32,272 nt of DNA, taken from a virus. Its lineage: Duplodnaviria; Heunggongvirae; Uroviricota; Caudoviricetes. The position numbers were made by a program, and so were the translations under genes. Below, in pieces: positions 6,005 through 8,791 of this stretch (within the stretch, counting starts at the first letter, position 1; each line of letters starts with the position of its first letter). Under the pieces are notes generated by a model that was given only the letters and a program-made list of their open reading frames with translations, did no database searches and was not told the origin of the DNA. The stretch is from positions 1 through 32,272 of IMG/VR virus record IMGVR_UViG_2737471827_000002; one strand, 5' to 3'.

Positions 6005-6576
6005 CGCTTTATCACAATCCTCAGTTGTTGTTTCAGCGCATAGCTCAGTTCTTTAGGCAGACGTTCGCGCCGGATACGGTTAACGTTCTCATCAAAAGCC
6101 TGTTTCAGTGGGGCTGCCATCGGAATTTTCACCACCTGAATGGGAAGACGATTACGCTTTTTCCTTCCCTTATCGTCATTGCCCTTCGCATACCGGGCTT
6201 CTGGCAGACGTTGCATAACATGCCAGCGCCCATTATTCAGTCGCTGGATGAATGCCCGCTGATAACGATGCTGACCAGCTTTAAGTATGCTGTTCGGACG
6301 ACGGCCCAGCATCCTGATCCCCAGCTTAATCACAGGGAGATCACCTCGGTTAACGATAATTTTGGCATTCGGATTTCTGACCGTCGCCCGTTTCAGTCTG
6401 GATCTCTCTTTAACCAGTTTTCTCGGCACCCTGGTTTCACGGGCAACCTGTGATGAAGACTGATTAATTGCCGTTGTAGCCACGCGGTTAATAGCCATTG
6501 CTGAAGCCGCCGGAATGGCGTTTTTACGAACCCGGCTCAGATTTTCAATCGCCTGATCAAGCCCTTTTATCGCCAT
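6001..6576 (-). CDS. Z: Tail completion protein Z
   Basis: 191 aa (lambda Z about 192); synteny between FII and U. Confidence 0.8.
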   Translation of the reverse strand: MAIKGLDQAIENLSRVRKNAIPAASAMAINRVATTAINQSSSQVARETRVPRKLVKERSRLKRATVRNPNAKIIVNRGDLPVIKLGIRMLGRRPNSILKAGQHRYQRAFIQRLNNGRWHVMQRLPEARYAKGNDDKGRKKRNRLPIQVVKIPMAAPLKQAFDENVNRIRRERLPKELSYALKQQLRIVIKR

Positions 6577-6944: not shown

Positions 6945-7305
6945 AAACGGCCATTCCACTCTTGACCATGTCTTTTGCCACTGAGGGGGGCATCAGAATT
7001 ACTCTGCCAGCATCAACATACTCAACAGGCTCACCTGTTTCATCGTCAACACCGCACAGGTAAAAACACTTCAGAAGCCTGATACGTTCCAGAATACCGA
7101 AAGCATCCTCACCGGTGTTCCTGTATGCCTGCTCATAAACGGTATCATCAACATCTGCGATTTCATTTTCCGATGCGCAAACCTCCTCTTCCCACTCTGC
7201 CACACGCTGTGCGATATCCGCTGCACTCCCCGACATATCCGCCTCGCGCCCCAGCAGGCCAGCCAGTTCACGAAGACGTTTCTGATTTTCTTCTTTTGTT
7301 GCCAT
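6937..7305 (-). CDS. DNA packaging protein FI-like (divergent from lambda FI)
   Basis: 122-aa acidic protein in the FI position between E and FII; sequence not lambda-like, assignment by synteny. Confidence 0.55.
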   Translation of the reverse strand: MATKEENQKRLRELAGLLGREADMSGSAADIAQRVAEWEEEVCASENEIADVDDTVYEQAYRNTGEDAFGILERIRLLKCFYLCGVDDETGEPVEYVDAGRVILMPPSVAKDMVKSGMAVYA

Positions 7306-7357
7306 ATCCAGCCCCCTGTGAAAAAAGACACGGGGGCATTTCGCCCCCGCTCACGGA

Positions 7358-8386
7358 TTATTTCACCTGCACCACCACAAACTCATCCGGGTCCGGCAAC
7401 ACCATCAGCGGTGCGGACTGCGTCATGGTGAATTCACGGGCCGGATCGCCCACGGTCATCCAGTGTTTCGGATAACGGGAAGAAGCCACCACACCTTCGG
7501 ACAACGCCTGTGCATCCTGAATGGCACCATAGCAACGAATACCTTCTGCCGCCGTATTTCCCAGGACCAGCGTGCCCTCCGGCAGATAACGTTTTTCGGT
7601 ACCGTCCTCTGCCACATAAGACGTTTTCGCCACCACAATGGCCAGATCGCCGTAATACCCCTTGAAAGACACCACCGACCCCAGGTCTTTCACTGCCGTT
7701 TCGAGTTGTGAATTTGAGCCGCGACGGGTATCCAGTTTTTCGCGGAACAGCTTAAAGCCATTCAGCAGACGCCAGACGGTACCGTCCATGATGGCAATAT
7801 TCACAAGACCGCTGGCCTGATCACAGAAAAGGTCGATATCATGCGTCGGGTCGAACGTGTCACGGTCCTGTTTTGACCACTCCTTACCGCTACCCTGTAT
7901 GATGTTATTCTTCGTCGATCTGCCAAAATCGACCTCAATTTTCTCGAACTGGTCTCCTTCCATGGTGTATTTACCATACAGCACAGCATTTACCGCCTGC
8001 ATTTCTTCCACCTGGACAATCGCGTGCTCTTCCTGTTTGAGGTTATCGGTAATGATACGCAGACGGCGGTAAGCCGGATCGTTCAGTTGAGCCGGATCTT
8101 CACCAGGAAGGCGCTCAACCGCCTGCTGGTAATTAAATTCGTGTTTCGGCTTGACGTAGCCCGGACGCAACACGCGGGTTTCACCACCACGATGACGCAG
8201 CACTTTTCCTTCAACAACCGGGGAGACATAGGCCGCTACCGGCGTTTTTCCGGTAATTTTGTCCAGCATCACCTCTTCTGTATGGAAATTCACCGTACGG
8301 CGGAAAAACAGCTCCAGAAACAGCGCACGAAATTTCACTTTTTGTTCGGTATAACCGAGTAACTGGCGGGTCGTAAACAATCCCAT
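7358..8386 (-). CDS. E: Major capsid protein E
   Basis: 342 aa; internal stretches (GYVKPKHE, ...DPAREFTM.QSAPLM...DPDEFV) match lambda E. Confidence 0.92.
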   Translation of the reverse strand: MGLFTTRQLLGYTEQKVKFRALFLELFFRRTVNFHTEEVMLDKITGKTPVAAYVSPVVEGKVLRHRGGETRVLRPGYVKPKHEFNYQQAVERLPGEDPAQLNDPAYRRLRIITDNLKQEEHAIVQVEEMQAVNAVLYGKYTMEGDQFEKIEVDFGRSTKNNIIQGSGKEWSKQDRDTFDPTHDIDLFCDQASGLVNIAIMDGTVWRLLNGFKLFREKLDTRRGSNSQLETAVKDLGSVVSFKGYYGDLAIVVAKTSYVAEDGTEKRYLPEGTLVLGNTAAEGIRCYGAIQDAQALSEGVVASSRYPKHWMTVGDPAREFTMTQSAPLMVLPDPDEFVVVQVK

Positions 8387-8443
8387 AAATCAGTTCCTTT
8401 CATTCAGAAATCAGTCAGGCCACCGCGGTGGCCTGATAACGTG

Positions 8444-8791
8444 TTACGGCAGCGCCGCGTGACTCAGGGCACTGCCGGCAAAGGCGTTGGCCTTTTTGTG
8501 TTCATCCACACTTTCAGGCCAGCGGATTGCCTCCGTCGCAAAGGTCCCCGACTTGTAATACGTCAGCGCCGTCTCTGTGCCTTCAAGCGGCAGTACCAGT
8601 ATGCCAACCGCACTACCGGCTTTCTGTCCGTCCCAGACCACCAGTTTCCCGGTGGCCTCATCCAGCATCAGGGGTGTCAGTGCCGGTGTTGCCGAGGAAA
8701 TCCCGCTGCTGCCTGTGGCGGTATGAGCCGGATCATTACCGGCAAAAATACGTACTTCCGCACGCTGTTCAGTGATTGTTTTCGTTACCAT
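8444..8791 (-). CDS. D: Capsid decoration protein D
   Basis: 115 aa; ...DPAHTAT...TPLMLD...YKSGTF... resembles lambda D; directly upstream of E. Confidence 0.85.
   Translation of the reverse strand: MVTKTITEQRAEVRIFAGNDPAHTATGSSGISSATPALTPLMLDEATGKLVVWDGQKAGSAVGILVLPLEGTETALTYYKSGTFATEAIRWPESVDEHKKANAFAGSALSHAALP

What the first reader, a model, noticed from the sequence alone, without database searches (positions are those of the whole stretch)
8387..8443. Perfect 20-bp palindrome between D and E
CAGGCCACCGCGGTGGCCTG (8416-8435) lies in the short D-to-E intergenic region without a following U-tract, so it is unlikely to be a terminator; it may affect mRNA processing, stability or relative translation of capsid versus decoration protein.
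Basis: seen in the sequence. Interest (0 to 1): 0.2.

Follow-up and report, generated by a model that had tools for sequence, protein, structure and literature searches.

The report
Conserved hairpin between phage capsid genes
The palindrome is real and is this prophage's version of an RNA hairpin that sits between the head-decoration gene and the major capsid gene in nearly all lambda-like phages; it is an ordinary terminator-type element that here has lost its U-tract, so it most likely acts as an mRNA stability barrier.

Summary
CAGGCCACCGCGGTGGCCTG lies at 8416-8435 and extends to a perfect 22-bp palindrome at 8415-8436. It sits in the 57-nt gap between the head-decoration gene (8444-8791) and the major capsid gene (7358-8386), both on the minus strand.

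The module is phage 21 shp/gene 7 (98.7% nt identity), not lambda itself.

A palindrome this long is not expected by chance: 0.07 per window with arms of at least 11, against 3 observed.

Among 71 distinct D-to-E gaps from 302 related loci, nearly all carry a GC-rich hairpin at this position, with differing stem sequences. An independent alignment fold finds the same 9-bp helix, and 7 of 9 pairs show compensatory changes.

Outside the phage 21 lineage, 48 of 51 hairpins are followed by a T-tract and look like canonical intrinsic terminators, lambda's included. The phage 21 lineage alone lacks the T-tract.

Within that lineage the stem is conserved (diversity 0.008, against 0.09-0.17 at synonymous sites), while the loop varies freely.

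A second conserved hairpin follows the capsid gene (7331-7349).

Best reading: a terminator-class intercistronic RNA hairpin, here probably a decay barrier or weak terminator. It is a known kind of element, of low to moderate interest, and its function is untested.

The parts
8415..8436 (-). Perfect 22-bp palindrome TCAGGCCACCGCGGTGGCCTGA. On the late-operon mRNA it forms a 9-bp stem with a 4-nt loop (CGCG). The reported 20-mer is 8416-8435.
   Evidence: -17.4 kcal/mol, z -4.5; persists in a 191-nt context; chance expectation.
8405..8414 (-). Tail immediately 3' of the hairpin on the mRNA, CUGAUUUCUG. It is a degenerate U-tract with tail score -2.04, against a median of -5.0 in other lineages.
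   Evidence: In L327 the same E leader is preceded by GCGGC-TTTTGTTTTTTCTGAAT.
8387..8404 (-). Leader of the major capsid gene, with the Shine-Dalgarno AAGGA at 8395-8399. It is AU-rich and very conserved among close relatives (pi 0.009 across the non-hairpin part of the gap).
   Evidence: Sequence; RBS annotated in M81255; diversity.
8444..8791 (-). Head decoration gene (phage 21 shp, lambda D homologue, 115 aa). Its stop codon TAA is at 8444-8446, 7 nt before the hairpin.
   Evidence: PF02924, E 4.6e-25.
7358..8386 (-). Major capsid protein gene (phage 21 gene 7, lambda E homologue, 342 aa).
   Evidence: PF03864, E 1.8e-66.
7321..7349 (-). Companion element: hairpin CGGGGGC-GAAAT-GCCCCCG followed by UGUCUUUUUU, 8 nt after the capsid-gene stop. 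It is a canonical terminator-like site, and a hairpin is conserved at this position in essentially all lineages.
   Evidence: -17.7 kcal/mol.

Best explanation
The palindrome is the phage 21-lineage version of a positionally conserved, terminator-class RNA hairpin. It follows the head-decoration gene and precedes the major capsid gene in lambda-like head modules. It works as RNA on the sense (minus) strand of the Q-antiterminated late transcript.

In most lineages the hairpin plus its U-tract is a canonical intrinsic terminator. From established knowledge of lambdoid late transcription, Q-modified RNA polymerase reads through such sites and unmodified polymerase stops at them.

In this lineage the U-tract has decayed, so termination is predicted to be weak or absent. 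I infer that the retained activity is that of a stable 3' stem-loop: a barrier to 3'-to-5' exonucleolytic decay. Such a barrier would protect the upstream decoration-gene segment after endonucleolytic cleavage or after occasional termination. Together with the second hairpin just after the capsid gene, it would help keep the messages for the two most abundant head proteins at high levels.

Shown here: the hairpin exists, its position is conserved, its pairs covary, the stem is under purifying selection, and the U-tract is missing in this lineage only. Inferred: the decay-barrier mechanism and any effect on expression.
For: 1. Position. 62 of 67 distinct D-to-E gaps of >=40 nt (92.5%) carry a G-C-cored hairpin of <= -7 kcal/mol, against 3.8% of dinucleotide shuffles. 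E-protein identity to the window across these loci runs from 100% down to 39%. The more distant loci L070, L079 and L080 (30-35% identical to lambda E) also show a hairpin plus T-run just upstream of the capsid gene.

2. Structure rather than sequence. A MAFFT alignment of 37 variants gives the same 9-bp helix with RNAalifold. 93.1% of cells are paired, against 30-52% when partners are slid. 7 of 9 pairs have changes on both sides. The covariation score is 0.456, against 0.237 in shuffles (0 of 500 reach it). The phage 21 stem differs from the common GGCCGC/GCGGCC core by a compensated G-C to A-U change.

3. Strand specificity. T-rich tails lie only 3' on the sense strand in 48 of 51 hairpins outside the phage 21 lineage. 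Internal wobble pairs are G.U on the sense strand far more often than A.C.

4. Selection within the lineage. Among 97 haplotypes, stem diversity is 0.032 (0.008 without the loop-closing pair), loop diversity is 0.142, and four-fold synonymous sites show 0.091 (D) and 0.166 (E). About 100 of 106 haplotypes keep a stem core of >=7 bp.

5. U-tract loss. The tail score is -2.04 in all phage 21-type gaps, against a median of -5.0 elsewhere.

6. A second hairpin directly after the capsid gene is likewise conserved in position, with varied sequence.

7. Stability. -17.4 kcal/mol, which I judge from general knowledge of mRNA decay to be enough to stall PNPase and RNase II.

8. Literature. [quoted passage not shown] Weak, read-through terminators tune expression in other phages (PMC9163698).
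Against: No expression, 3'-end or half-life data exist for this element in anything I could reach.

The near-universal T-tract in other lineages argues that termination, not just a decay barrier, is what is usually selected. The phage 21 version could therefore be a partly disabled element.

The rest of the gap (the E leader) is as conserved as the stem (pi 0.009). Low stem diversity alone therefore does not single out the hairpin; the contrast with the loop is the informative part.

The covariation alignment was built from segments chosen because they contain a hairpin, so its paired percentage is biased upward.

Relatives in Providencia (L007/L008) and Glaciecola (L051) have no hairpin and gaps of only 22-32 nt, so the element is dispensable in some backgrounds.

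Hairpins of similar energy (with G.U allowed) also occur inside coding regions of this window.
Confidence: 0.5

Rival explanations
1. It is still a working, non-canonical intrinsic terminator. Its role would be insulation: it stops RNA polymerase that has not been modified by Q (spurious or read-through transcription in the lysogen) just before the major capsid gene, while Q-modified polymerase reads through. mRNA stabilisation would be incidental.
For: Positional homologues are canonical terminators in 48 of 51 hairpins outside the phage 21 lineage, lambda among them. The capsid gene is bracketed by terminator-like sites on both sides in all lineages. The phage 21 stem is longer and stronger (core -14.9 against a median of -11.3), which might partly compensate for a poor U-tract. 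The loose terminator scan flags it. The phage L paper proposes exactly this role for intra-operon terminators.
Against: The tail CUGAUUUCUG has no U in the first position after the stem and only 4 U in the 8 nt after the G-C core. Its tail score of -2.04 is below the usual -2.5 cut-off. The whole phage 21 lineage (about 100 haplotypes) has kept this U-poor tail, so efficient termination is evidently not required there.
Confidence: 0.22
2. Its main role is translational. The hairpin locks away upstream sequence so that the AU-rich leader and Shine-Dalgarno of the capsid gene stay single-stranded, giving a standby or S1-binding platform. This would uncouple and boost capsid-gene translation relative to the decoration gene.
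For: The distance from the hairpin to the capsid-gene ATG is fairly constant (19-41 nt, mostly 20-33), whereas the distance from the D stop varies from 4 to 42 nt. The downstream leader is AU/U-rich in all lineages and highly conserved here (pi 0.009). The hairpin does not sequester the SD in the predicted folds.
Against: This does not explain why an analogous hairpin also follows the capsid gene. It does not explain why the canonical A-tract/stem/T-tract terminator architecture is so regular in other lineages. No direct evidence exists.
Confidence: 0.1
3. It is a decaying relic of an ancestral terminator with no present function in the phage 21 lineage.
For: The T-tract is lost. 39% of haplotypes no longer have the perfect palindrome and about 30% have the loop-closing pair broken. 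A few haplotypes carry mid-stem mismatches, a 1-nt deletion, or a full deletion (L215). Some relatives lack any hairpin (L007, L051).
Against: The eight outer stem pairs are almost invariant (pi 0.008), while the loop and synonymous sites vary 10-20-fold more. The changes that reach appreciable frequency fall in the loop or the closing pair, or give a G.U pair. The stem is longer than in the lineages that keep the T-tract.
Confidence: 0.1
4. It acts as double-stranded DNA: a symmetric binding site for a dimeric protein, a cruciform, or a recombination or insertion hotspot that marks a mosaic boundary.
For: The DNA symmetry is perfect through the centre. The common variant CCGCGG to CCATGG changes both central bases symmetrically and keeps a perfect palindrome in 13 haplotypes. 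Mosaic junctions (L327) and an IS200-like insertion (L099/L329) lie immediately 3' of the hairpin.
Against: Other lineages have asymmetric loops (CTGT, GAA, GAT, ATCG and others) and different stem sequences, so no common protein site exists. The asymmetric T-tract and the sense-strand G.U pairs indicate an RNA function. The one-sided intermediate CCACGG exists. The half-site does not recur as an operator-like set in the window.
Confidence: 0.04

Closest known systems
Lambda D-E intergenic stem-loop (AAAGGCCGC-CTGT-GCGGCTTTTTTT, NC_001416 about 6100-6125) and its enterobacterial variants
   Same: Same position (between the HDPD-family decoration gene and the Phage_cap_E capsid gene). Same strand. 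Alignable GGCCRC...GYGGCC core. Similar distance to the capsid-gene start.
   Different: Lambda has a 5-bp G-C core (9 bp with A-U and G.U pairs) followed by seven T, a textbook intrinsic-terminator form. The window has a 9-bp stem (a fully symmetric 22-bp palindrome) and no T-run. I could not retrieve any paper that assigns a function to the lambda element. My recollection that early lambda sequence papers noted it is unverified.
Intra-operon intrinsic terminators of lambdoid late operons (for example P22 and phage L)
   Same: Hairpins lying inside a single antiterminated late operon at the edges of the procapsid gene block. The proposed roles are partial termination or stopping non-antiterminated transcription.
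   Different: Those were predicted as full terminators with T-tracts. This copy fails the T-tract criterion.
Intercistronic mRNA-stabilising hairpins (malE-malF REP, Rhodobacter puf operon stem-loops; from my own knowledge of the literature)
   Same: A stable stem-loop just 3' of a cistron whose product is needed in high amounts, inside a polycistronic mRNA and without efficient termination. The expected mechanism is a block to 3' exonucleases.
   Different: It is not a dispersed REP repeat: it is unique in the window, and there is a median of one place per genome in E. coli genomes, with every listed place under the capsid genes. No half-life data exist for it.
Weak, read-through terminators flanking capsid genes in other phages (T7 T-phi; Pseudomonas phage LUZ7)
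   Same: Hairpins around the most highly expressed structural genes that tune transcript dosage.
   Different: Those act on phage or host RNA polymerases without Q-type antitermination and have measured termination efficiencies. Nothing has been measured here.

Membership tests
Canonical intrinsic (Rho-independent) terminator | G+C-rich stem-loop on the transcribed strand | tested here: met
   9-bp stem with 6 G-C pairs and a 4-nt loop, -17.4 kcal/mol.
Canonical intrinsic (Rho-independent) terminator | U-tract (about 5 or more U within the 8 nt immediately 3' of the stem) | tested here: not met
   The tail is (A)CUGAUUUCUG, with 4 T in the first 8 nt after the G-C core. Its tail score is -2.04, against the usual cut-off of -2.5 and a median of -5.0 in relatives.
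Canonical intrinsic (Rho-independent) terminator | Measured termination of RNA polymerase | not testable with these tools
   Needs in vitro transcription or Term-seq.
Conserved D|E intercistronic hairpin of lambda-like head modules (defined here by comparison) | Lies in the gap between an HDPD-family decoration gene and a Phage_cap_E capsid gene, on the sense strand | tested here: met
   The same layout is found in 302 loci with 71 distinct gaps.
Conserved D|E intercistronic hairpin of lambda-like head modules (defined here by comparison) | Stem aligns with the relatives' stems and is maintained by compensatory change | tested here: met
   In alignment A2, RNAalifold finds the same helix, 7 of 9 pairs have double changes, and 93% of cells are paired. 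Caveat: the segments were selected for containing a hairpin.
Conserved D|E intercistronic hairpin of lambda-like head modules (defined here by comparison) | T-rich tail 3' of the stem | tested here: not met
   Present in 48 of 51 hairpins outside the phage 21 lineage and absent in the phage 21 lineage.
mRNA-stabilising intercistronic hairpin (REP or puf type) | Stable stem-loop 3' of a highly expressed cistron inside an operon | tested here: met
mRNA-stabilising intercistronic hairpin (REP or puf type) | RNA 3' ends at the hairpin and a longer half-life of the upstream segment | not testable with these tools
   Needs 3'-end mapping and a rifampicin chase.
REP / dispersed palindromic repeat | Many dispersed copies in the host genome | tested here: not met
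   Unique in the window with up to 3 mismatches. Among matching E. coli genomes the 251-nt region has a median of 1 place per genome (highest 5), and all 40 listed places lie under a decoration or capsid gene.
RNase III processing site | About 20 bp or more of near-continuous double-stranded RNA | tested here: not met
   Only 9 bp, or about 13 with a bulge and weak outer pairs.
Any curated Rfam family | Covariance-model match | tested here: not met
   No hit at gathering threshold in the window at this site. Nothing overlaps the site at E <= 10 in 7250-8550.

The most novel reading that the evidence does not exclude
The two hairpins that bracket the major capsid gene (after the decoration gene and after the capsid gene) could form a conserved, previously uncatalogued regulatory architecture of all lambda-E-type head modules. 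It would set capsid-protein dosage through segmental mRNA stability, or keep the capsid gene transcriptionally silent in lysogens, for example to avoid triggering capsid-sensing abortive-infection defences. The phage 21 lineage, which kept and lengthened the stem while losing the U-tract, would then be a natural separation-of-function variant showing that the hairpin has a role independent of termination.
Probability: 0.25. Interest if true: 0.4.

Novelty: new member of a known kind. Interest (0 to 1): 0.22.

Why it matters
If the hairpin does modulate message stability or insulate the capsid gene, it is one of the few cis-acting elements inside the otherwise tightly packed lambdoid late operon. 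It would help explain how one 20-kb transcript yields proteins at copy numbers that differ by two orders of magnitude.

The phage 21-type module is present in about a third of complete E. coli genomes (1909 of 5426), including EHEC prophages, so the element is very widespread.

Practically, it is a compact natural part for phage and operon engineering: a strong hairpin without a terminator tail, next to relatives that have the tail. It also offers a ready-made comparison for separating termination from RNA stabilisation.

As it stands, it is an ordinary feature of a known class.

Tried and rejected
1. Rfam. No family covers the site at gathering threshold or at E <= 10.

2. Operator-like or repeated site. 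The palindrome is unique in the window. Half-site matches with 1 mismatch (15, against 8.8 expected) are unremarkable.

3. REP-like dispersed repeat. Rejected: among matching genomes the region has a median of one place per genome, and all listed places lie under the capsid genes.

4. RNase III site. Rejected because the stem is too short.

5. Chance. Rejected by simulation and by positional conservation.

6. Literature. Searches for a described function of the lambda or phage 21 D-E stem-loop found nothing specific. Liu et al. 2013 (ribosome profiling of lambda) and Casjens & Hendrix 2015 are not held. PMC5737525 discusses general folding signals in lambda late genes and does not use the words 'terminator' or 'intergenic'.

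7. My first hairpin finder extended stems into the A/T tracts and gave misleading tail scores. I replaced it with a G-C-anchored core definition.

8. Three apparent 'no hairpin' cases (L090/L194 and L215) were checked. The first two are frameshifts in D with the hairpin intact. L215 is a real deletion between CCTGA direct repeats.

9. Locus counts contain some contigs fetched twice, so I report distinct sequences and haplotypes instead.

Full report
OBSERVATION

The sequence read shows CAGGCCACCGCGGTGGCCTG at exactly 8416-8435. With T8415 and A8436 it becomes a perfect 22-bp palindrome.

It lies in a 57-nt gap (8387-8443) between two ORFs on the minus strand: a 115-aa ORF at 8444-8791 and a 342-aa ORF at 7358-8386. 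Pfam assigns these to the lambda head-decoration family (HDPD, PF02924, E 4.6e-25) and to major capsid protein E (PF03864, E 1.8e-66). The neighbouring genes encode an S49 protease/scaffold protein and FI.

At the nucleotide level the region is 98.7% identical to the phage 21 head operon (M81255, genes shp and 7). It has no nucleotide-level match to lambda. The window is a phage 21-type lambdoid prophage of E. coli. The 251-nt region around the site is found in 1909 of 5426 complete E. coli genomes. The late operon is transcribed on the minus strand.

IS IT MORE THAN CHANCE?

In 300 first-order Markov simulations of the window, perfect inverted repeats with arms >=11 nt and a loop <=8 nt are expected 0.067 times. 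Three are observed. For arms >=9 nt, 0.9 are expected and 7 observed.

On the sense strand the RNA folds into a 9-bp stem with a 4-nt loop: -17.4 kcal/mol, z = -4.5, with 0 of 200 shuffles as stable. The hairpin is kept in both the MFE and the centroid structure of a 191-nt context.

The palindrome is unique in the window, and no Rfam family covers it.

The tail after the stem is CUGAUUUCUG. It passes only the loosest terminator filter. Its TransTerm-style tail score is -2.04, below the usual -2.5 cut-off.

COMPARISON WITH RELATIVES

Lambda's D-E gap has a different hairpin, AAAGGCCGC-CTGT-GCGGC, followed by seven T. Gifsy-1 has AAGGCCGC-GAA-GCGGCCTT followed by TATCGTATTT.

I collected 334 loci using the capsid protein and its homologues. 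In 302 of them the interval from the D stop to the E start could be delimited, which gave 71 distinct sequences. E-protein identity to the window across these loci runs from 100% to 39%.

- Among 67 distinct gaps of >=40 nt, 92.5% contain a G-C-cored hairpin of <= -7 kcal/mol. Only 3.8% of dinucleotide-shuffled gaps do.
- Three more distant loci have no D hit in my search: L070, L079 and L080, whose capsid proteins are 30-35% identical to lambda E. They also show a GC hairpin plus T-run just upstream of the capsid gene.
- Outside the phage 21 lineage, 51 of 54 distinct gaps have the hairpin. In 48 of those 51 the tail score is <= -3.5 (median -5.0, typically 6-7 T in the first 8 nt), which is the form of a canonical intrinsic terminator.
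- In the phage 21 lineage the tail score is uniformly -2.04. The one exception is the recombinant L327. There a different decoration gene and a canonical terminator (GCCGC-ATT-GCGGC-TTTTGTTTTTTCTGAAT) are joined to the same capsid-gene leader.
- Hairpins are truly absent only in Providencia (L007/L008, 32-nt gap) and Glaciecola (L051, 22-nt gap).

STRUCTURE, NOT SEQUENCE, IS CONSERVED

A purely sequence-based MAFFT alignment of 37 distinct hairpin segments lines up on a GGCCRC...GYGGCC core. RNAalifold independently predicts the same 9-bp helix.

On that helix:
- 93.1% of cells form standard pairs, against 30-52% when the 3' partners are slid by 1-3 columns.
- 7 of 9 pairs show changes on both sides.
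- The covariation score is 0.456, against 0.237 in shuffles, and 0 of 500 shuffles reach it.

The phage 21 stem differs from the common core by a compensated G-C to A-U exchange. A caveat applies: the segments were chosen because they hold the best hairpin of each gap, so the paired percentage is inflated. The shuffle test on whole gaps does not have this bias.

Internal non-Watson-Crick pairs are mostly G.U on the sense strand rather than A.C. The T-tracts lie only on the sense side. Both point to an RNA-level function on the late mRNA.

SELECTION WITHIN THE PHAGE 21 LINEAGE

Among 106 distinct D-E haplotypes:
- 52 carry the CCGCGG centre and 13 carry CCATGG. Both forms are perfect 22-bp palindromes.
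- 30 carry GCGT, which breaks only the loop-closing pair.
- 3 carry a G.U variant, and 1 carries the one-sided intermediate CCACGG.
- About 4 have a mid-stem mismatch or a 1-nt deletion.
- 1 has the element replaced (L327), and 1 has it deleted between CCTGA direct repeats (L215).

Nucleotide diversity among 97 full-length haplotypes:
- Stem: 0.032, or 0.008 without the closing pair.
- Loop: 0.142.
- Rest of the gap: 0.009.
- Four-fold synonymous sites: 0.091 in D and 0.166 in E.

A conserved stem with a freely varying loop is the signature of a selected hairpin. It argues against a functionless relic.

A COMPANION ELEMENT

On the sense strand of the structural-gene region, the only strong intergenic hairpins are this one and a second at 7331-7349. 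The second is CGGGGGC-GAAAT-GCCCCCG followed by UGUCUUUUUU, 8 nt after the capsid-gene stop.

A hairpin at that second position is also present in essentially every lineage, again with different sequences. Lambda's is GGCCC-UUCG-GGGCC.

The two genes whose products are needed in the largest numbers are therefore each followed by a stable stem-loop. This statement about lambda head composition comes from my own knowledge.

MECHANISM

Shown here:
- a conserved sense-strand RNA hairpin of terminator class;
- loss of the U-tract in this lineage only;
- purifying selection on the stem.

Inferred:
- In relatives with a U-tract, the element terminates polymerase that lacks the Q modification and is read through by Q-modified polymerase. 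This rests on established lambdoid late-gene regulation. The same possibilities are raised for phage L and P22, where the authors state that the roles of intra-operon terminators are unknown.
- In this window termination should be weak. The retained activity is most likely a 3'-exonuclease barrier that stabilises the upstream decoration-gene segment of the late mRNA. This would be analogous to REP or puf intercistronic hairpins (my own knowledge) and to weak, read-through terminators that tune dosage in other phages.

Rivals:
- a still-functional non-canonical terminator acting as an insulator before the capsid gene;
- a translational role that keeps the AU-rich capsid-gene leader open (the hairpin-to-ATG distance is more constant than the stop-to-hairpin distance);
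- a decaying relic;
- a DNA-level site, suggested only by the symmetric CCGCGG to CCATGG change and by mosaic and IS junctions next to it. This is contradicted by the asymmetric loops and differing stems elsewhere.

COMPARISON WITH KNOWN ELEMENTS AND NOVELTY

The element works like an intra-operon terminator or intercistronic stabiliser hairpin.

It fails one defining feature of a canonical intrinsic terminator, the U-tract. It is not a REP repeat, not an RNase III site (the stem is too short) and not an Rfam family.

The GenBank records for phage 21 (M81255), lambda and Gifsy-1, and the RefSeq annotation of an E. coli prophage, list no feature at this position. I found no paper that assigns it a function.

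The kind of element is well known, so I rate it a new member of a known kind with low interest.

The modestly new observations are these:
- the hairpin's position is conserved across the whole E-type capsid family;
- a second hairpin sits after the capsid gene in the same way;
- the phage 21 lineage is a natural variant with a strong stem and no U-tract.

None of this has been tested experimentally.

Noticed in passing
window 7321-7349 (minus strand): Canonical terminator-like hairpin CGGGGGC-GAAAT-GCCCCCG plus UGUCUUUUUU, 8 nt after the major capsid gene stop. A hairpin at this position is present in essentially all related lineages with different sequences (lambda: GGCCC-UUCG-GGGCC).
   Followed up: yes
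window 17916-18104, 20764-20848, 20874-20951, 24628-24803 (all minus strand): Rfam gathering-level hits to STnc100, C4 antisense RNA, isrK and the sok antitoxin RNA. They lie in the early/regulatory half of the prophage, so several small RNAs are encoded there.
   Followed up: no
window 31972-32018, 30941-30979, 31464-31490: Perfect AT-rich inverted repeats near the immunity end of the window: 20-nt arms with a 7-nt spacer, 15-nt arms with a 9-nt spacer, and 10-nt arms with a 7-nt spacer. The first two share the motif ACAGTTTTT/AAAAACTGT. They may be operators or bidirectional terminators.
   Followed up: no
window 14570-14634: Imperfect 30-nt inverted repeat (80% complementary, 5 nt apart) just upstream of the small terminase gene (14002-14550, minus strand), that is, in the expected cos region.
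   Followed up: no
window 17461-17487 and 18241-18272 (minus strand): Two strong canonical terminators with T6-T7 tails, between the lysis region and the late-promoter region. They are candidates for tR'-type sites read through by Q.
   Followed up: no
loci L012-L027, L050, L052, L055-L076 (genome contigs): About 40 short, low-coverage contigs in assemblies of unrelated taxa (Chromatium, Kitasatospora, Neobacillus, Bradyrhizobium, Corynebacterium, Vibrio and others) match lambda's capsid region. In those that span the D-E gap, D and E are 100% identical to lambda's. This looks like lambda DNA contamination of the assemblies.
   Followed up: partly
L099 / L329 (IMGVR_UViG_2654587509_000011), about 130-440 of L099: An IS200-like tnpA with its own terminal hairpin (CCTCCGGC-TAT-GCCGGAGG) is inserted exactly where the tail of the D|E hairpin meets the capsid-gene leader. 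The contig ends inside the IS, so the other junction is not visible.
   Followed up: partly
L215 and L327 (viral contigs): L215 has a 52-nt deletion between CCTGA direct repeats that removes the D C-terminus and the hairpin. L327 joins a different decoration gene and a canonical terminator to the same capsid-gene leader, which places a mosaic junction just 3' of the hairpin.
   Followed up: partly
MT713136.1 (Aeromonas phage AP1) 250152-250339: A 188-bp stretch of this 254-kb Aeromonas phage record is 97.9% identical to the E. coli prophage capsid gene and has no annotated feature. It is probably a chimeric or contaminated record.
   Followed up: no
window about 8447-8480 (minus strand) and 8474-8501 (plus strand): A further 10-bp stem forms within the last codons of the decoration gene in the 191-nt fold. 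On the opposite strand there is a terminator-like GCCGGCAAAGGCGTTGGC plus CTTTTTGT. Its significance is unknown.
   Followed up: no
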